From an uncultured Anaerolineaceae bacterium (GTDB taxonomy: Bacteria > Chloroflexota > Anaerolineae > Anaerolineales > UBA4823), in the NCBI GenBank assembly GCA_964606085.1, contig CAZSFD010000005.1, positions 19,812-83,811 on the forward strand: a DNA stretch of 64,000 nt, given 5' to 3'. The notes under the pieces are model-generated. The model did not search any database. It had not been told where the DNA came from and worked only from the letters and a program-made list of their open reading frames with translations. Made by a program: the position numbers and the translations under genes. Positions 32,827-42,194 of the stretch are shown piece after piece (position 1 is the stretch's first letter; each line of letters opens with the position of its first letter).

Positions 32827-32846
32827 TTGTCACGGTCGCCTATTCT

Positions 32847-32896
32847 CACCGATTGAAATCGGTGTCTGGCGGTGTTAAACCCGCTTAAGCGGGTTT
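32847..32896. repeat. Two adjacent perfect palindromes
   Basis: CACCGATT-GA-AATCGGTG (32847-32864) and AAACCCGCTTAAGCGGGTTT (32877-32896). Confidence 0.85.
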
Positions 32897-32924: not shown

Positions 32925-34172
32925 ATGAACATCCCTTTTTACCTCGGCGATAATGCCATTGACGAACTGATCAACTATTGTGAAGCGCACGACCGGCGCG
33001 ACTTCTTCCTGATCGCCGACCGCAACACCTATCCCATTCTCGGCCAGGAAGTGGAATTGGCCCTGCAGGCCCGCGGCTGGGACGTGAAAACGGTCATCTA
33101 TCAGCAGCATGAGGTGGTACCCAACGAAGTCTTCATCATGCAAGCGCTGGAGAAGGCAGATTGGGTCGAGCGCACTTTCCTGGCCGTGGGTTCGGGCGTG
33201 ATCACCGACATCACGCGCTTTGTCAGCCACCGCACGCGCCGCCCGTTCATCTCGCTGCCCACCGCCCCCTCGGTAGATGGCTTCACCTCGCCGAGTGCTT
33301 CGTTGGTGCTGGATCGCATCAAGAAGACCGTCATCGCGCAGCCGCCGGAGGCCATCTTCGCCCACCTGCCCACGCTGGTCGCCGCACCCCAGGCCATGAT
33401 CGCCGCCGGGTACGGCGACATCCTCGGCAAGGCCATTGCCCTGGCCGATTGGAAACTCGGTTCGCTGTTGTGGGATGAGCCTTACAGCGCCGAAATCGCC
33501 GCCCGTGTGCGCAACACGCTGGACACCTGCGTGGCTGCCACGGACGAAATTGGCGCAGCCACGCCCGAAGGCATCCGCAAATTGATGGATGCGCTGATCG
33601 ATTCGGGCCTGTGTATGCTCGATTTTGGCAACTCGCGCCCGGCAGCCGGGGCTGAACACTATATGTCCCATTTCCTCGAGATGAAATTCCTGGCCGAAGG
33701 ACGCCCCGCCGTGCTGCACGGGGCCAAAGTGGCGTTGTGTTCGCTCGCTGTGGCCGAACTCTACGACCGCCTGCGCCAACTGAGCCGCGCCGAGGCCGCC
33801 GAGCGCCTGCGCACCATCCCCCTGCCCGACCGCTCCGCCGATATTGAGCGCATCCGCCGCGTCTACGGGCCGATTGCCGACAGCCTGGTGATCGAGCAAG
33901 CGCCCTTCCTCAACCTGACTGCCCACGCCTATGCCACCCTTAAGGGCCGCGTCCTCGACAACTGGGATGACATTCAGGCGCTGGCCGCCGATGTTCCCTG
34001 CCCCGAAGAACTGGCCGATCTGCTCCAGCGTGCTGGCGGTTCCACCAACCCCGCCGATCTCACCCTCCAGCCCGGCGAACTCGAACAGGCCCTGCACCAC
34101 TCGCATCTCTTCCGCAACCGTTTCACCGTGTGCAAGCTGGGCCGCATGTTGGGCCTGGAAGCTGGTTTGTAG
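32925..34172 (+). CDS. sn-glycerol-1-phosphate dehydrogenase-like (AraM/EgsA family)
   Basis: GSGVITDITRF, PTAPSVDGFTS, GYGDILGK, GAEHYMSH, LHGAKV; GGAG RBS before 32925. Confidence 0.88.
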   Translation: MNIPFYLGDNAIDELINYCEAHDRRDFFLIADRNTYPILGQEVELALQARGWDVKTVIYQQHEVVPNEVFIMQALEKADWVERTFLAVGSGVITDITRFVSHRTRRPFISLPTAPSVDGFTSPSASLVLDRIKKTVIAQPPEAIFAHLPTLVAAPQAMIAAGYGDILGKAIALADWKLGSLLWDEPYSAEIAARVRNTLDTCVAATDEIGAATPEGIRKLMDALIDSGLCMLDFGNSRPAAGAEHYMSHFLEMKFLAEGRPAVLHGAKVALCSLAVAELYDRLRQLSRAEAAERLRTIPLPDRSADIERIRRVYGPIADSLVIEQAPFLNLTAHAYATLKGRVLDNWDDIQALAADVPCPEELADLLQRAGGSTNPADLTLQPGELEQALHHSHLFRNRFTVCKLGRMLGLEAGL

Positions 34173-34194
34173 GGCGGAATTAATTTCGCCCTAC
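34169..34194. repeat. GTAG-type REP-like palindrome
   Basis: GTAGGGCG-GAATTAATTT-CGCCCTAC; contains the TAG stop of the upstream gene. Confidence 0.7.
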
Positions 34195-34210
34195 AGAATT
34201 AGGAAAAAAC

Positions 34211-35035: not shown

Positions 35036-35047
35036 GAAGTGTGCGTC

Positions 35048-35105
35048 AAACGTGAGGCGTGATACGTGAAGACCATCCACGTTTCACGTATCATGCCTCA
35101 CGTTT
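35048..35105. repeat. 23-bp inverted repeat built from CGTGAnn heptamers
   Basis: AAACGTGAGGCGTGATACGTGAA / TTCACGTATCATGCCTCACGTTT, one mismatch (G-U compatible). Confidence 0.85.
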
Positions 35106-35125
35106 CACCAATCACGGAGTTTCCC

Positions 35126-35842: not shown

Positions 35843-35846
35843 TGGT

Positions 35847-35942
35847 GTTCGGCATTCGATAATTCGATAATTCGATATTCGCAATTCGAATACCGAATTA
35901 TCGAATACCGAATACCGAATACCGAATATCCAATACCGAATT
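35847..35942. repeat. Inverted array of 7-8 bp ATTCGnn / CGAATAC units
   Basis: (ATTCGATA)n left arm and (CGAATAC)n right arm. Confidence 0.85.
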
Positions 35943-35946
35943 ACCC

Positions 35947-37245
35947 ATGCTCCCCTTTCCCCCTTTCAACCTCCACTGTCACACCCACTTCTCCTTCAAC
36001 GCCAACGGCTATTCACCCACCGATTTGGTGAAAATGGCAAAGGAAAAGAACTGGTATGCCGTGGGCATCGTGGATTTCGACGTACTCGATGGCGTGGACG
36101 AGTTTCTCTCCGCCTGCGAGGCGTTGGAAATGCGCGGCATGGCTTCCCTCGAAACACGCGTCTACGTCCCCGAATTTGCCACGCGCGAGATCAACTCTCC
36201 TGGTGAGCCGGGCGTGTTCTACTTTATGGGAGTCGGTTTCACCCGAAGTGATCCTGCCCCCGAAGTGGCCGACACCCTCGCCGCCATGCGCCGCCGCGCC
36301 GCCGCCCGCAACCGCCAGATGATCGAGCGCCTCAACGCCCACCTGTCCCCGCTCACCGTAGACTATGACCGCGACGTGCTTTCGCTGACGCCCGCCGGCA
36401 ACGCCACCGAGCGGCACATGCTTAAAGCATATATCCAAAAAGCATATATCCAAAAAGCAGAAGAGCAATTTCAACCACAAAGTATACAAAGGAACACAAA
36501 GGAAAACTTCGTGCCCTTCGAGTCCTTTGTGGTTCGATTGAATGATTTTTGGGCTGAAAAACTGGGCTTGGCGGAAGATCAGATTGCCACGCAGATCGCG
36601 GACTACGCCAAATTCTCCAACACCGTGCGCGGCAAGTTGATGAAACGCGGCGGCGTTGGCTACATCCCGCCCACACCCGAAACCTTCCCCACCGTCGAGG
36701 AAGTCAGCCAGTTTGCCATCGCCTGCGGCGCCATCCCATGCGCCACCTGGCTGGATGGCACTTCTGCCGGCGAGCAAGCCGAAGCCGAATTGCTCGATCT
36801 GCTGATCTCAAAAGGCACGGCAGCGATCAACATCATCCCCGACCGCAACTGGAATATCGCCGACCTTGAACAGCGCAAGCTCAAAGTGCAGAAGCTCTAC
36901 GAGGTGGCGGCCCTGGCGCAACGCCTCGACCTGCCGATCATCGTCGGCACCGAGATGAACGCCCCCGGGCAAAAGCTGGTGGACGATTTCGAAGCCCCCG
37001 AACTGGCCCCCGTGCGCCAGGCCTTCCTCGACGGCGCTGATTTTCTCTACGGCCACACGGTCATGCAGCGCGCCCTCGGCATGGGGTATCAATCGGAGTG
37101 GGCCAAAACAAATCTCCCCACCCGCCGCCAACGCAACGATTTCTACACCCAACTGGGCCGCCGCTTGCAGCCAGGACAGGCTAGTCTCGAAAAATTGCGC
37201 TTTTTACAACCCATATCACCAACAGGAATGTTAGAAAACATCTAA
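35947..37245 (+). CDS. PHP-domain protein (putative phosphoesterase)
   Basis: LHCHTHFS, GIVDFD, GTEMN; carries an AT-rich in-frame insert. Confidence 0.72.
   Translation: MLPFPPFNLHCHTHFSFNANGYSPTDLVKMAKEKNWYAVGIVDFDVLDGVDEFLSACEALEMRGMASLETRVYVPEFATREINSPGEPGVFYFMGVGFTRSDPAPEVADTLAAMRRRAAARNRQMIERLNAHLSPLTVDYDRDVLSLTPAGNATERHMLKAYIQKAYIQKAEEQFQPQSIQRNTKENFVPFESFVVRLNDFWAEKLGLAEDQIATQIADYAKFSNTVRGKLMKRGGVGYIPPTPETFPTVEEVSQFAIACGAIPCATWLDGTSAGEQAEAELLDLLISKGTAAINIIPDRNWNIADLEQRKLKVQKLYEVAALAQRLDLPIIVGTEMNAPGQKLVDDFEAPELAPVRQAFLDGADFLYGHTVMQRALGMGYQSEWAKTNLPTRRQRNDFYTQLGRRLQPGQASLEKLRFLQPISPTGMLENI
36473..36534. mobile_element. 62-bp miniature palindromic element inserted in frame in the PHP gene
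   Basis: Terminal IR AACCACAAAG/CTTTGTGGTT; sister copy at 37244-37306. Confidence 0.7.
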
Positions 37246-37306
37246 CCACAAAGGACACACAGGATCACGAAGACTGTCCTTTGTGTTCCTTCGTGGCCTT
37301 TGTGGT
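37244..37306. mobile_element. Miniature palindromic element (ACCACAAAGG...CCTTTGTGGT) at the PHP stop codon
   Basis: Perfect 10-bp terminal IR, internal ACACAAAG/CTTTGTG-like units; similar length to the in-gene copy. Confidence 0.7.
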
Positions 37307-37323
37307 GAAATTTCGGAGAATCT

Positions 37324-39027: not shown

Positions 39028-39031
39028 GGTG

Positions 39032-39116
39032 ATATTCGACAATTCGTGATTCGTTAATCGAAAACGGTCTGCGATGGCAACGAATCACGCATAACGATTA
39101 TCGAATAACGCATAAC
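39032..39116. repeat. Inverted heptamer array (TTCG/CGAA type)
   Basis: CGTGATTCGTT (39045-39055) / AACGAATCACG (39079-39089) plus flanking 7-bp periodic units. Confidence 0.75.
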
Positions 39117-39127
39117 CGTTTCCCGTC

Positions 39128-40000
39128 ATGAACTTCGGCGCCCACATTTTTCTCTGGACTGACCGCTGGACGAATGCTTCGCTTCCGCTGATGGATCGCG
39201 CCCGCGGCCTGGGGCTGGATATGTTGGAGATCGCCAACGGCGATGACGTGGAATTTGACCCGGCGGCCATTCGCCAACAGGCGCAAGCCGTGGGCCTGAC
39301 GCTCACCCTCAGCCCCGGCGGAATCTGGCCGATGGAAGCCGACATCTCGCACCCCGACCCGGCGGCCCGGCAGTTCGGCCTCGACTGGCACCGCCGCTGG
39401 ATTCGCCTGGCCGGTGAGTCGGGCATGGTGGCTTACTGCGGCGCACTCTACGCCCACCCGGGCCGCGTCGCCCGCCGCGCCCCTGACCCCGACGAGCAGC
39501 GCTGGGCTGCCGAGGGGCTGCACGCCCTGGCCGAAATCGGCGCAGCCTGCGGCGTGGAGATCGTCATCGAACCGATGAGCCACTTCCGCACCCACCTGGT
39601 CAACACGCCCCAACAGGCCCTGAACCTCCTCGCCGCCGCCGATCACCCCAACCTGAGCGTGCTGTTCGACACCTATCACGCCGTCACCGAAGTGCGCGAC
39701 TACGCCGCCGCCCTGCGAACACTCGCCCCGCGCCTGTGGGGATTGCACGCCTGCGAAAGCGACCGCGGCGTACCCGGCGGCGATGCTGGGGACAGCGGCG
39801 GGCTTGTTCCCTGGGAGCAGGTATTCTCAGCACTCCACGAAATCAACTTCGACGGAAACGTTCTCTTCGAGTCCTACAACTCCAGCCTCGATAACTGCAA
39901 CTTCGCCTACTCGCGCGGCATGTTCCACCACGTTTGCGACGATGGCGATGAGTTTGTTCGCACGGGCCTGAAATTCCTCCGCAGTCACCCGATCACCTAA
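39128..40000 (+). CDS. Sugar isomerase/epimerase, D-psicose/D-tagatose 3-epimerase family
   Basis: Metal and catalytic set IEPMSHF, FDTYH, HACESDRG, FES. Confidence 0.82.
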   Translation: MNFGAHIFLWTDRWTNASLPLMDRARGLGLDMLEIANGDDVEFDPAAIRQQAQAVGLTLTLSPGGIWPMEADISHPDPAARQFGLDWHRRWIRLAGESGMVAYCGALYAHPGRVARRAPDPDEQRWAAEGLHALAEIGAACGVEIVIEPMSHFRTHLVNTPQQALNLLAAADHPNLSVLFDTYHAVTEVRDYAAALRTLAPRLWGLHACESDRGVPGGDAGDSGGLVPWEQVFSALHEINFDGNVLFESYNSSLDNCNFAYSRGMFHHVCDDGDEFVRTGLKFLRSHPIT

Positions 40001-40021
40001 TCACCTAGTCACCCACTCACC

Positions 40022-41287
40022 TTGTCCCCCTCTCATCCTCTCCCCCCTTTCATCATGACTTCCGAACCTGGCTCCTTCGCCCGGCGCACCATTGTCGAGC
40101 GCAAGCCGCAGATCATCGCCCAGGTTTTGGCTGATTTCGCCTATCCCCCTGAAATTGTCGCCGCGGTTGAAGCCTTTCGAGATGAGATTGCGCATGAAAT
40201 CATCCAACCGCTGCCTAGCACAGGATTAATCCTGTGCCACGATGTGGATGCCTGGAATGCCGAAATCGCCGTCTACGCCGGCAAAACCTGGCTCGAAGTG
40301 CCCTGGTACTTCGCCGAGACGCTGTTCTACCGCAAACTGCTCGAAGCCGTGGGCTACTTCCAGCCTGGTGCGTGGCAGGGCGTAGACCCCTTCCAAAAGG
40401 CCAAAGACCGCCAGATCGCCGCCGACATCCACAAAGCCGCTGCCGAATGGAGCGATCTTTCTGACCTGCCGTCCCACGAAGCCTTCGAGGTGCTGATCCA
40501 TTCCTGCCTGTGGGGCAACCGCACCGATCTGAGCAACCACACGGTCACCCGCCGCGGCGCTACCGGCCTGGCTGCCCGTGAAGATCGCCACCAGATTTTG
40601 ATTGACGACAGCGAAACGCTCTACCGCCTGATCTCCGCCGGCCTGCCGCGCCTCGATTTCATCAACGACAACTGCGGCATAGATTTCCTCACCGACCTGG
40701 CCCTGGCCGATTTTTTGCTGACCAAGGGTTGGGCCGCTGAGATCGTGATGCACCTCAAGCCGCAGCCATTTTTCGTCTCGGATGTGATGATCAAAGACGC
40801 CGAGACGATGCTGGCTGCGCTGGCTGCCTTCGTGCCAGGCGAGTCCGCTTCAGCGGACTTTCGGCCTCAGGCATCGAATTCATTCGACGTAGCCGACCTG
40901 GGCCGCCGTCTGCAACATGCCCACACCGCCGGCCGCCTGCGCTTCACCACGCATCCCTTCTGGCCCACCCCCTTCATGTTCCGCCAAATGCCCGCCGACC
41001 TGCGCAACGAACTCGCCCAGGCCAACCTGGTCATCCTCAAGGGCGATGTCAACTACCGCCGCCTGCTCGATGACCGTCATTGGCCGTTCACGGCCCGCAT
41101 GGAAGAGATCGCCGCCTACCTCCCCGCCCCCTTCGCCGCGCTGCGCACTTTCAAGTGCGAACTCGCCGTCGGACTGCAACCCGGCCAGGCCGAGCAAATC
41201 GCCGTTGCCGACCCCGATTGGCTGCTCAACGGCCAGCGCGGGGTGATCCAATTTGTAACCACGAATAACGAATTTCGATTATCGTGA
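40022..41287 (+). CDS. DUF89/ARMT1-like damage-control sugar-phosphate phosphatase
   Basis: PWYFAET, LWGNRTDLS, DNCG, HLKPQPFFVSD, KGDVNYRRL; start may be TTG 40022 or ATG 40055. Confidence 0.85.
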   Translation: MSPSHPLPPFIMTSEPGSFARRTIVERKPQIIAQVLADFAYPPEIVAAVEAFRDEIAHEIIQPLPSTGLILCHDVDAWNAEIAVYAGKTWLEVPWYFAETLFYRKLLEAVGYFQPGAWQGVDPFQKAKDRQIAADIHKAAAEWSDLSDLPSHEAFEVLIHSCLWGNRTDLSNHTVTRRGATGLAAREDRHQILIDDSETLYRLISAGLPRLDFINDNCGIDFLTDLALADFLLTKGWAAEIVMHLKPQPFFVSDVMIKDAETMLAALAAFVPGESASADFRPQASNSFDVADLGRRLQHAHTAGRLRFTTHPFWPTPFMFRQMPADLRNELAQANLVILKGDVNYRRLLDDRHWPFTARMEEIAAYLPAPFAALRTFKCELAVGLQPGQAEQIAVADPDWLLNGQRGVIQFVTTNNEFRLS

Positions 41288-41305
41288 TTCGAAATTCGTT
41301 ATTCG
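41262..41305. repeat. Perfect 17-bp inverted repeat with stop codon in loop
   Basis: CGAATAACGAATTTCGA / TCGAAATTCGTTATTCG. Confidence 0.9.
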
Positions 41306-41333: not shown

Positions 41334-42128
41334 ATGCAACTCGAAAACCGTATCGCCATCGTCACCGGCGGGGCACAAGGATTGGGTCAGGCCATCTGCA
41401 TGCGCCTGGCGCAAGAAGGCTGCCACGTTGTTGTCGCCGATCTGAAAGAAGAACAGGCCATCGCCACCGCCGCGCAGGTGGAGGCCGCCACGGGCCGCCG
41501 TTCATTTGCCGTCAAGGTGGATGTCAGCGACGAAGCCCAGGTGGAAGCGCTGGTGGCCCGCACCGTGCAGGAATTTGGCCGCCTGGATATCCTCGTGGCC
41601 AACGCGGGGATTCTCATCGCCGAGGAGATCACCGAATTTCCCGCCGAAAAGTGGCGCGCCGTGATGAACGTCAACCTGTTTGGCTACTTCCTGTGCGCAA
41701 AGCACGCCGCACGGGTGATGAAGGCGCAAAAAAAGGGCGTGATCATCGAAATCAACTCGAAATCAGGCAAGAAGGGCAGCTTCAAAAACTCGGCCTACGC
41801 TGCCAGCAAATTTGGCGGCATTGGTCTCACGCAATCCATTGCCCTCGACCTGGCCGAACACGGTGTGCGCGTCAACGCCATCTGTCCCGGCAATTTGCTC
41901 GATTCCCCGCTGTGGAACGACGGCCCGAATGCCCTGTTCAAGCAGTACGCCCGCAACCGCGGCATTACCGAAGAAGAAGTGCGCCAGATATACATCAACC
42001 AGGTGCCCATGAAGCGCGGCTGCACCTACGAAGATGTCTGCAACGTCGTCACTTTCATGGCCTCCGACCAATCCAGCTACATGACCGGGCAGGCGATTAA
42101 TGTGACGGGTGGGCAGGAGATGCGGTAA
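41334..42128 (+). CDS. srlD: SDR, sorbitol-6-phosphate dehydrogenase-like
   Basis: TGGAQGLG, INSKSGKKGSFKNSAYAASKFGG, GNLLDSPLW, YMTGQAINVTGGQEM as in SrlD/SorD. Confidence 0.82.
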   Translation: MQLENRIAIVTGGAQGLGQAICMRLAQEGCHVVVADLKEEQAIATAAQVEAATGRRSFAVKVDVSDEAQVEALVARTVQEFGRLDILVANAGILIAEEITEFPAEKWRAVMNVNLFGYFLCAKHAARVMKAQKKGVIIEINSKSGKKGSFKNSAYAASKFGGIGLTQSIALDLAEHGVRVNAICPGNLLDSPLWNDGPNALFKQYARNRGITEEEVRQIYINQVPMKRGCTYEDVCNVVTFMASDQSSYMTGQAINVTGGQEMR

Positions 42129-42129
42129 A

Positions 42130-42185
42130 CGTTATTCGATAATTCGCTATTGGTTTGTGATCGAATAACGAATTATCAAATTTCG
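42130..42185. repeat. Inverted TTCG/CGAA periodic repeat
   Basis: CGTTATTCGAT / ATCGAATAACG, alternative GATAATTCG / CGAATTATC. Confidence 0.75.
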
Positions 42186-42194
42186 CTTTTTCCT

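What the first reader, a model, noticed from the sequence alone, without database searches (positions are those of the whole stretch)
36473..36534. Palindromic DNA element translated in frame inside a protein
A 62-bp element with perfect 10-bp terminal IRs sits mid-gene and is read as QPQSIQRNTKENFVPFESFVV without breaking the frame, in an AT-rich patch unlike the surrounding codons. A near-identical-length sister copy is intergenic 700 bp downstream. This parallels Rickettsia palindromic elements as a source of new peptide segments, in a lineage where I do not know it to be described.
Basis: partly seen in the sequence, partly recalled or inferred. Interest (0 to 1): 0.72.

Follow-up and report, generated by a model that had tools for sequence, protein, structure and literature searches.

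The report
Hairpin repeat translated inside an enzyme loop
A 62-base hairpin-forming repeat that normally sits between genes has landed in frame inside a loop of a PHP-family enzyme of a Chloroflexota (Anaerolineae-like) bacterium; relatives carry other, unrelated hairpin repeats at the same spot, so this loop is a recurrent landing site for non-coding palindromes that end up translated.

Summary
At 36473-36534 a 62-nt element with perfect 10-nt terminal inverted repeats lies inside an intact 432-aa PHP-domain gene. It reads as residues 176-196 (QPQSIQRNTKENFVPFESFVV). A sister copy at 37244-37308 starts at the gene's stop codon.

It is an insertion. 86 of 120 homologues have an 18-aa linker here against 43 in the window. 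Removing the 63 nt and an adjacent 15-nt tandem duplication restores the empty-site length. Codon usage in the insert is foreign. In an AlphaFold model it falls in the only very low-confidence loop. dN/dS of 0.11-0.16 on both sides indicates a working gene.

The element is not specific to this lineage. Hairpins built of tandem CAC(A/G)AAGG units occur in many phyla, mostly just after stop codons. In Caldilineales one forms the core of a MITE with 8-bp target duplications.

The unexpected result is that at least seven homologues carry different palindromic repeats at this same linker.

My reading is a REP/RPE-like passenger tolerated in a permissive loop. How it arrived is unresolved: transposition or local templated copying. 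Expression is untested. Novelty: a new variant of a known kind. Interest is moderate.

The parts
36473..36534 (+). In-gene palindromic element, 62 nt. With C36472 it forms a 63-nt, 21-codon in-frame insert encoding Q176-V196. The boundaries are uncertain by a few nt, because weaker complementarity (CAAT...ATTG) extends to about 36466-36541.
36473..36482 (+). Left terminal inverted repeat, AACCACAAAG.
36525..36534 (+). Right terminal inverted repeat, CTTTGTGGTT.
36424..36453 (+). Perfect 15-nt tandem duplication (AAAGCATATATCCAA x2, followed by a third AAAGCA). It duplicates KAYIQ and is absent from all relatives examined. It looks like a replication-slippage product next to the hairpin.
   Evidence: (D6)
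35947..37245 (+). Host gene: a 432-aa PHP-domain protein (PF02811). By fold it is closest to the Cv1693 / BAD_1165 / RNase AM phosphoesterases. dN/dS is 0.11-0.16 on both sides of the linker.
37244..37308 (+). Sister hairpin in the PHP|ADH intercistronic spacer. It begins within the TAA stop codon and folds at -34.2 kcal/mol. A hairpin is present at the same position in L001, L002 and L003, with different sub-units in L001 and L002.
35045..35108 (+). Intercistronic hairpin with periodic arms (CGTGA-type units), in the aldolase|aldolase spacer. Same architectural class.
35844..35930 (+). Intercistronic hairpin with periodic arms (ATTCGATA-type units), in the aldolase|PHP spacer.
39030..39110 (+). 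Intercistronic hairpin with periodic arms (ATTCGTGA-type units), in the ADH|xylose-isomerase-like spacer.
61286..61330 (+). Intergenic copy of the repeat (TGGTTGAGCCTGTCGAAACCAGGTCTCGACAAGCTCGACCG; this 41-nt run is identical in the two printed sequences) that sits in frame in the PHP linker of relative L001. Here it lies just after the stop of ORF 60430..61278.
32840..32895 (+). deoR|Fe-ADH spacer with two small hairpins. It is homologous to the three-hairpin block that sits in frame in the PHP linker of relative L002.

Best explanation
The 62-nt element is a copy of a non-coding, hairpin-forming intergenic repeat. It behaves like a REP: small and palindromic, with no target-site duplication, and normally parked just after stop codons in intercistronic spacers. 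The copy became inserted as 63 nt (21 codons) into the short linker between two helices of the helical insertion domain of a PHP-family phosphoesterase.

The insert is a multiple of three and this copy has no stop codon in any of its six frames, so the reading frame survived. The ribosome therefore reads it as a 21-residue, probably disordered-to-helical loop extension. The enzyme tolerates this extension, so the element is a passenger rather than an adaptation.

The same linker behaves like an intergenic spacer inside a gene. In related lineages it has been filled independently by at least five other unrelated palindromic repeat types, and hairpins replace each other there as they do in the true spacers of this operon.

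Shown: the element, its hairpin, its insertion status, the intact gene under purifying selection, the loop location in the model, the recurrent fills, and the intergenic habit of the family.

Inferred: that it is translated, that it is neutral, and how it arrived.
For: Insertion status:
- Linker length from TERH to FW is 18 aa in 86 of 120 homologues and 43 here.
- The closest empty-site orthologue, P0006, has 17 aa, and 43-17 = 21 (element) + 5 (duplication).
- Codon usage is foreign: GC3 0.52 against 0.76, with AGG, ATA, AGT and ACA codons that are rare or absent in the operon.

Gene functional on both sides:
- dN/dS is 0.11-0.16 for the N- and C-terminal parts against three relatives.

Loop location:
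- The AF2 model has mean pLDDT 87.6. Its only segment below 50 is residues 179-188, between helices 155-174 and 191-206.
- The fold is PHP phosphoesterase.

Habit of the family:
- The sister copy sits at the stop codon of the same gene, at the orthologous position in four loci.
- 68 of 96 family hits in other genomes lie within 60 nt after the end of an ORF of at least 100 aa.
- None of 10 checked candidates was truly in frame.
- No Rfam family reaches its gathering score.

Mobility of this kind of sequence:
- In Caldilineales MAGs the same hairpin is the core of a roughly 150-nt dispersed element with terminal inverted repeats and 8-bp target duplications on different contigs.
- In L001 a CACAAAGG-type hairpin occupies the Fe-ADH|aldolase spacer, where the window and L003 have a different small palindrome.

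Hot spot:
- L001, L002, L003, L126, L127 and L128 each carry other palindromic or periodic repeats at the same linker.
- A metagenome relative carries yet another 187-nt fill.

No selection for mRNA structure:
- The sense-strand hairpin is the weakest, at -22 kcal/mol against -31.5 on the antisense strand and -34.2 for the sister.
Against: - No RNA or peptide evidence was available.
- Only two family copies occur in 64 kb, and both are in one operon. High copy number and dispersal in this genome are therefore not shown.
- The in-gene copy has no target-site duplication and no GTAG/CGTC tag, so no known mobilisation mechanism can be assigned.
- No allele with the precise empty site was found, so recent mobility is unproven.
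- All four members of the closest clade carry a fill at this site. That could mean one ancient insertion followed by replacements, or selection for something at this site.
Confidence: 0.62

Rival explanations
1. Local templated copying. The insert was not transposed but copied from the operon's own intercistronic hairpin, the PHP|ADH spacer 771 nt downstream. The route would be replication template switching or break repair with templated filler at a fragile AT-rich or palindromic site. The adjacent 15-nt slippage duplication would be a scar of the same instability.
For: - The only two family copies in 64 kb are 771 nt apart in one operon.
- The sister ranks second of 127 family members in similarity to the in-gene copy.
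- In relative L002 the linker fill is a copy of a whole three-hairpin spacer. Its homologue lies between deoR and Fe-ADH of the same operon in L003 and the window. A multi-hairpin spacer is not an obvious transposable unit.
- There is no target-site duplication.
- A perfect tandem duplication lies 19 nt upstream.
Against: - The sister is no closer to the in-gene copy than Acidobacteriota copies are, so the source cannot be identified.
- The L001 fill has its nearest known copy 25 kb from the PHP gene in the window, not in the operon.
- L002's own deoR spacer is not on its short contig.
Confidence: 0.3
2. Selected RNA or DNA structure. A hairpin at this point of the coding sequence is itself useful, for example as a ribosome pause between folding units or as an RNase processing or decay barrier inside the polycistronic mRNA. 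On this view different lineages recruit any available hairpin.
For: - At least seven lineages have strong hairpins at exactly this site, some very stable: L003 -34.8, L002 -82.7, and L127 and L128 about -75 kcal/mol for the linker.
- Every true spacer of the operon also carries a hairpin.
Against: - 86 of 120 homologues have no fill and no notable structure (L124 and L125 about -0.25 kcal/mol per nt).
- In the window the sense-strand hairpin is degraded by A.C mismatches and is weaker than the antisense fold.
- The L126 fill is mostly a one-armed tandem array, not a hairpin.
Confidence: 0.1
3. Selected new peptide. The 21 residues, together with the KAYIQ duplication that lengthens helix 155-174, give the enzyme a new property such as an interface, a lid or a change in solubility, and are maintained for that reason.
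For: - The frame has been kept.
- The model predicts that the C-terminal half (FESFVV) merges into helix 191-206.
- The insertion domain of PHP phosphoesterases lies over the active site (fold matches; the role of the domain is from my general knowledge).
Against: - The fills in relatives are unrelated in sequence and range from about 21 to 58 aa in linker length.
- Model confidence is low across the insert.
- Codon usage has not been ameliorated.
Confidence: 0.07
4. Not a real translated insert. The segment would be an assembly error, or the gene a decaying pseudogene.
For: The source is a metagenome contig at modest depth (about 10).
Against: - The protein is recorded on two contigs.
- A Logan contig reproduces 36000-37400 with no differences.
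- The ORF is intact.
- dN/dS of 0.11-0.16 on both sides is an average over both lineages.
- Independent assemblies of relatives show analogous in-frame fills.
Confidence: 0.03

Closest known systems
Rickettsia palindromic elements (RPE; Ogata et al. 2000, 2002, as summarised in PMC10969869 and PMC3733652)
   Same: A palindromic repeat inserted in frame in an otherwise conserved enzyme gene. The frame is preserved and the extra peptide sits in a loop compatible with the fold. The same family also occurs intergenically.
   Different: - RPEs are about 100-150 bp, each family encodes a recognisable peptide, and dozens of unrelated genes are hit in one genome.
- Here the element is 62 nt and built of 9-nt sub-repeats.
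- Only one in-frame copy was seen.
- The recurrence is many different elements in one loop, not one element in many genes.
- The host is Chloroflexota.
REP / BIME / REPIN elements, including intragenic REPs (Di Nocera et al. 2013, PMC3733652)
   Same: A short imperfect palindrome with no target duplication. It lies preferentially just downstream of ORFs between co-directional or convergent genes. G.U-type asymmetry between the strands is present. Intragenic dimers encoding 20-30 aa are documented in several phyla.
   Different: - There is no GTAG or CGTC tag; the ends are AACCAC and GTGGTT.
- The arms are tandem 9-10-nt units.
- High copy number in this genome is not shown.
- No RAYT transposase was identified (not searched genome-wide).
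MITEs (for example Correia/NEMIS and ERIC, and the roughly 150-nt Caldilineales element found here)
   Same: Terminal inverted repeats and small size. A related hairpin is the core of a real MITE with 8-bp target duplications in Caldilineales.
   Different: The in-gene copy and its sister lack the outer inverted-repeat module of the MITE. They also have no target-site duplication.
Intercistronic stabiliser or terminator hairpins
   Same: The sister and most family members lie 0-25 nt after a stop codon and fold strongly.
   Different: No U-tract follows. The window also has a canonical terminator with U-tracts at 57506-57535. The function of the hairpins was not tested.
Quasipalindrome / template-switch mutagenesis and replication slippage (general knowledge from E. 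coli genetics)
   Same: These would explain arrival without a target duplication, hairpin-for-hairpin replacement, and the neighbouring perfect 15-nt tandem duplication flanked by AAAGCA microhomology.
   Different: These processes are known for small corrections of existing quasi-palindromes. Copying a 60-120-nt block from 0.8-3.5 kb away is an extrapolation.

Membership tests
Rickettsia palindromic elements (RPE) | Sequence belongs to one of the described RPE families (about 100-150 bp, conserved encoded peptide) | not testable with these tools
   No RPE library is on hand. Length (62 nt) and host phylum differ. No Rfam family reached its gathering score on this region.
Rickettsia palindromic elements (RPE) | Many in-frame insertions of the same family in unrelated genes of one genome | tested here: not met
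   There is one in-frame copy in 64 kb. The palindrome inside the ARMT1-like gene is native. None of the 10 most promising of 18 'inside an ORF' family hits in other genomes was convincing. The rest of the source genome was not available.
Rickettsia palindromic elements (RPE) | Insert lies in a surface loop and leaves the host protein intact | tested here: met
   AF2 model: the insert falls between helices 155-174 and 191-206, and the only segment with pLDDT below 50 is 179-188. dN/dS is 0.11-0.16 on both sides.
REP (repetitive extragenic palindromes, RAYT-associated) | GTAG or CGTC tetranucleotide tag at one end of the palindrome | tested here: not met
   The ends are AACCACAAAG and CTTTGTGGTT. 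Other hairpins nearby do carry GTAG, for example window 34168-34195 and the L001 GTAGCGTG-type hairpins.
REP (repetitive extragenic palindromes, RAYT-associated) | Located just downstream of ORFs, between co-directional or convergent genes | tested here: met
   The sister copy starts at the stop codon. 68 of 96 family hits lie within 60 nt after an ORF end, and 26 of them have an ORF end on both sides.
REP (repetitive extragenic palindromes, RAYT-associated) | High copy number dispersed in the genome, and a cognate RAYT gene | tested here: inconclusive
   Only 2 copies occur in 64 kb. Extra contigs in the source sample match the sister element but cannot be assigned to this genome. No RAYT search was done.
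MITE | Terminal inverted repeats | tested here: met
   A perfect 10-nt inverted repeat. The family-wide consensus is TT(C/A)A|CCAC...GTGG|T(G/T)AA.
MITE | Target-site duplication flanking the element | tested here: not met
   The flanks are ...CAATTTC | element | CGATTGA..., with no direct repeat. By contrast, the Caldilineales element carrying the same core has clear 8-bp duplications.
MITE | A parent insertion sequence with the same termini | not tested
   No search for a parent insertion sequence was made.

The most novel reading that the evidence does not exclude
Two linked claims are not excluded by the evidence.

1. Hairpins whose arms are tandem 7-10-nt units, here CAC(A/G)AAGG with the flanking consensus TTMA/TKAA, form a previously undescribed class of gene-end elements. 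They would be shared across many phyla (Acidobacteriota, Planctomycetota, Bacteroidota, Verrucomicrobiota, Chloroflexota and others) and would evolve in concert within each hairpin.

2. These and other palindromic repeats are installed by a hairpin-targeted replacement process, in which a new hairpin lands on and displaces an old one. This would make one protein loop behave as an 'intergenic spacer inside a gene' and would continually feed new peptide segments into it.
Probability: 0.3. Interest if true: 0.75.

Novelty: new variant of a known kind. Interest (0 to 1): 0.5.

Why it matters
In-frame 'selfish' palindromes are a textbook curiosity of Rickettsia and are sporadically noted for REPs. 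This case extends the phenomenon to free-living Chloroflexota.

It also offers a natural experiment of an unusual kind. One loop of one enzyme family has been filled independently by at least six unrelated repeat types, with close empty-site relatives available. That makes three things testable:
- how much foreign peptide a loop tolerates;
- whether hairpin repeats target existing hairpins;
- how non-coding DNA becomes protein sequence.

The widespread periodic-arm hairpins at gene ends may also deserve a description of their own.

Tried and rejected
- Rfam search of 33.5-43.5 kb. It returned only sub-threshold microRNA-precursor look-alikes on the hairpins, and no family.
- Looking for other in-frame copies of the family. 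18 of 96 hits in other genomes had a stop-free frame spanning them. The 10 most promising were arginine-rich spurious frames or lay upstream of the real start, for example Kuenenia adenylosuccinate lyase.
- The palindrome inside the ARMT1-like gene (40205-40250). Its peptide is conserved in L003, so it is native, not an insert.
- GC-dip scan of the window. No other long AT-rich patch inside a gene is comparable to 36405-36570.
- Metagenome scan for the precise empty-site allele (24-mer). 0 hits.
- Metagenome scan for the in-gene left arm (27-mer). 0 hits, not even the source contig, so that collection does not hold this organism.
- Reads. Only Logan contigs were available, so population polymorphism of the 63-nt insert or the 15-nt duplication could not be seen. 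No RNA runs were listed.
- Covariation test on the PHP|ADH hairpin across four loci. The alignment is dominated by indels and gave only 12 pairs with one compensatory change, so it is uninformative.
- Identifying the donor copy by similarity. The sister ties with copies from other phyla.
- attC (integron) identity. I considered and rejected this from the sequence: the AAC/GTT triplets lie at the outer ends, not in the R''/R' arrangement (my reading; no tool).
- Gene-fusion remnant idea. All 120 listed homologues are single proteins (409-476 aa), and nearly all have only a short linker at this site.

Full report
**1. What is there**

The window is 59% GC. ORF 35947..37245 (+) encodes a 432-aa protein with an N-terminal PHP domain (PF02811). 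Named relatives are Chloroflexota/Anaerolineae MAGs.

The gene lies in a co-directional cluster: a DeoR regulator, Fe-ADH, two class II aldolases, the PHP protein, a Zn-ADH-like protein, a xylose-isomerase-like TIM barrel, an ARMT1-like phosphatase, an SDR and a HAD hydrolase.

Inside the gene, 36473-36534 reads AACCACAAAG TATACAAAGG AACACAAAGG AAAA CTTCGTGCC CTTCGAGTC CTTTGTGGTT.
- The terminal 10 nt are perfect reverse complements.
- Each arm is about three tandem 9-10-nt units.
- Together with C36472 it forms 21 codons, read as Q176-V196 (QPQSIQRNTKENFVPFESFVV).
- A second copy at 37244-37308 begins inside the TAA stop codon and ends 16 nt before the next ATG.
- These are the only two copies in the 64 kb.

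**2. It is an insertion, and the gene still works**

Insertion:
- Among the 120 best homologues, the distance from the conserved TERH to FW is 18 aa in 86, 22 in 15 and 27 in 6. The window has 43.
- The nearest empty-site orthologues are P0006 (KAYIQKAELQGPAVEFW) and P0005. Removing the 21 codons and a 5-codon tandem duplication from the window leaves KAYIQKAEEQFRLNDFW, the same length as P0006.
- The insert has GC3 0.52 against 0.76 for the rest of the gene, and mean RSCU 0.97 against 1.69. It uses AGG (never used elsewhere in the operon), ATA, AGT, ACA and CCA.

Function:
- dN/dS against the three closest relatives is 0.11-0.14 for the part before the linker and 0.13-0.16 for the part after it. 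Both halves are therefore read in the same frame, and the insert must be translated. This is an inference: no RNA runs were available.

Structure:
- An AlphaFold2 model built on a 27-sequence alignment is confident (mean pLDDT 87.6).
- Residues 179-188 are its only segment of three or more residues with pLDDT below 50.
- The insert lies between helices 155-174 and 191-206.
- The fold matches the PHP phosphoesterases Cv1693 (2yb1), BAD_1165 and RNase AM.

**3. What kind of element it is**

No Rfam family reaches its gathering score.

- I estimate roughly 270 chance matches in the whole collection.
- About 96 of the hits are nevertheless real hairpins whose arms repeat CAC(A/G)AAGG two to four times, which chance matches would not be.
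- They come from Acidobacteriota, Planctomycetota (including Kuenenia), Bacteroidota, Verrucomicrobiota, Chloroflexota, Desulfobacterota and Proteobacteria.
- Their flanks extend the stem with the consensus TT(C/A)A | ... | T(G/T)AA.
- 68 of 96 lie within 60 nt after the end of an ORF of at least 100 aa, and 26 have such an ORF end on both sides.
- None of 10 inspected candidates was a believable in-frame insertion.

The family is enriched for stop-free frames: a median of 4 of 6 frames open, against about 2 of 6 in shuffles. The in-gene copy is open in all six. This helps explain why it could be tolerated.

In Caldilineales MAGs the same hairpin is the centre of a roughly 150-nt dispersed repeat. 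That repeat has terminal inverted repeats (GTAACTACTAACGT...) and clean 8-bp target-site duplications on different contigs, so it is a real MITE. The window's two copies lack that outer module and have no target duplication.

**4. The sister copy is an orthologous intercistronic hairpin**

In L001, L002 and L003 (PHP proteins 76-82% identical to the window's), the PHP|ADH spacer also starts TAACCAC... and folds strongly, at -39 to -52 kcal/mol for L003 and L001.
- L003 uses CACAAAGG/CACGAAGG units like the window.
- L001 and L002 use CACGGA units in both arms.

Every other spacer of the operon also carries an AT-rich hairpin with periodic arms: 35045-35108, 35844-35930, 39030-39110, 41262-41305 and 42127-42188.

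At a given spacer the unit sequence often differs between relatives, or one hairpin type replaces another. For example, the small GTAG-tagged palindrome of the window's Fe-ADH|aldolase spacer is replaced in L001 by a CACAAAGG-type hairpin.

**5. The linker is a hot spot**

Each of the three closest relatives has a different palindrome at the same place:
- L003 has a perfect 35-nt palindrome, AAGACCTCACAGGTCTT-T-AAGACCTGTGAGGTCTT.
- L001 has GGTTGAGCCTGTCGAAACC in forward-reverse-forward arrangement. A 41-nt run of that block (TGGTTGAGCC...CTCGACCG) is identical at 61286-61330 of the window, just after a stop codon.
- L002 has a three-hairpin block homologous to the deoR|Fe-ADH spacer of L003 and of the window at 32840-32895.

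More distant homologues also carry fills:
- A GC-rich cloverleaf (L127, L128; about -75 kcal/mol).
- A tandem CACGCAA array plus another palindrome (L126).
- A metagenome relative has a different 187-nt sequence in place of 36435-36600.

So at least seven lineages have filled this one loop with at least six unrelated repeat types. Only one other fill of this kind was seen in the 27 aligned proteins: PFDFAQGASPG in L002. A four-residue difference in P0004 was not examined.

**6. How it most likely works**

The element is best read as a REP-like non-coding hairpin that entered a permissive loop and is carried as a translated passenger.

On the sense strand its hairpin is the weakest (-22 kcal/mol, with A.C mismatches). 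The antisense fold is -31.5 and the sister is -34.2. This argues against selection for mRNA structure here.

How it arrived is open. For transposition:
- Such hairpins are mobile elsewhere.
- They are polymorphic between relatives.

For local templated copying:
- The only two copies are 771 nt apart.
- The L002 fill is a copy of a spacer whose homologue lies in the same operon in L003 and the window.
- There is no target duplication.
- A perfect 15-nt slippage duplication (36424-36453, flanked by AAAGCA microhomology) lies 19 nt upstream.

The sister is not uniquely the closest relative of the in-gene copy (rank 2 of 127), so the donor cannot be named.

**7. Comparison with what is known**

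In outcome this parallels RPEs. It also parallels the intragenic REPs that Di Nocera et al. found in several phyla, encoding 20-30 aa; that paper also reports GTAG REPs in Chloroflexi (PMC3733652; review PMC10969869).

It fails the tested defining features of each family:
- RPE: no multi-gene in-frame spread.
- REP: no GTAG/CGTC tag.
- MITE: no target duplication.

I found no paper in the held library that describes MITEs or REPs in Anaerolineae.

**8. Verdict**

The new elements are the periodic-arm hairpin type, its breadth across phyla, and above all the repeated colonisation of one protein loop by different palindromes. Interest is moderate (0.5).

Noticed in passing
window 36424-36453: A perfect 15-nt tandem duplication (AAAGCATATATCCAA x2, then AAAGCA again) duplicates KAYIQ and lengthens helix 155-174. 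All relatives examined have a single copy. It looks like recent replication slippage next to the hairpin.
   Followed up: partly
window 35045-35108, 35844-35930, 39030-39110, 41262-41305, 42127-42188: Nearly every intercistronic spacer of this 10-gene operon holds an AT-rich hairpin whose arms are tandem 7-10-nt units (CGTGA-, ATTCGATA-, ATTCGTGA- and CGAATAA-types). Relatives have hairpins at the same spacers but often with other units.
   Followed up: partly
L016, L074, L075, L021, L025, L026, L089, L113 (Caldilineales MAGs): A roughly 150-nt dispersed element with terminal inverted repeats (GTAACTACTAACGT...ACCTTAGTAGTAAC) and 8-bp target-site duplications (for example TATTTTAG, ATTTTTCA, CTTAAAAC, CGCTACAC). 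Its core is a CACAAAGG-type periodic hairpin. It appears to be an undescribed MITE.
   Followed up: partly
window 61286-61330: A 41-nt run of the repeat block that is translated inside the PHP linker of relative L001 is identical here. In the window it is intergenic, just after the stop of ORF 60430..61278.
   Followed up: partly
L002 1878-1995; L003 1-90; window 32840-32895: The 55-aa linker of relative P0003 contains an in-frame copy of a three-hairpin intergenic block. The homologue of that block is the deoR|Fe-ADH spacer of the same operon.
   Followed up: partly
L002 about 1630-1665: A second in-frame extra segment in relative P0003 (PFDFAQGASPG, DNA CCCTTCGACTTCGCTCAGGG) lies in another loop. 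Similar 20-mers occur in two unrelated genomes (L053, L058).
   Followed up: no
window 39990-40021: A one-armed tandem array, TCACCTAA TCACCTAG TCACCCAC TCACCTTG, lies at the xylose-isomerase-like|ARMT1-like junction. It resembles the 3' tail of 16S rRNA (anti-Shine-Dalgarno-like) and has no inverted partner. L001 has a CTTTG-type array at the same place.
   Followed up: no
window 34168-34195 versus L001 1241-1331: The small GTAG-tagged palindrome (TGTAGGGCGGAATTAATTTCGCCCTACA) in the Fe-ADH|aldolase spacer of the window and L003 is replaced in L001 by a 70-nt CACAAAGG-type hairpin. This is a hairpin-for-hairpin replacement.
   Followed up: partly
window 57506-57535: A canonical bidirectional intrinsic terminator (AAAAAGCCCCCGGA TT TCCGGGGGCTTTTT) between convergent genes. 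It shows that the organism also uses ordinary terminators, unlike the periodic hairpins, which lack U-tracts.
   Followed up: no
window 36435-36600, run X3: A contig of a freshwater metagenome aligns to both sides of the linker but carries a different 187-nt sequence in between. This is yet another fill of the same site. The letters themselves were not retrievable.
   Followed up: no
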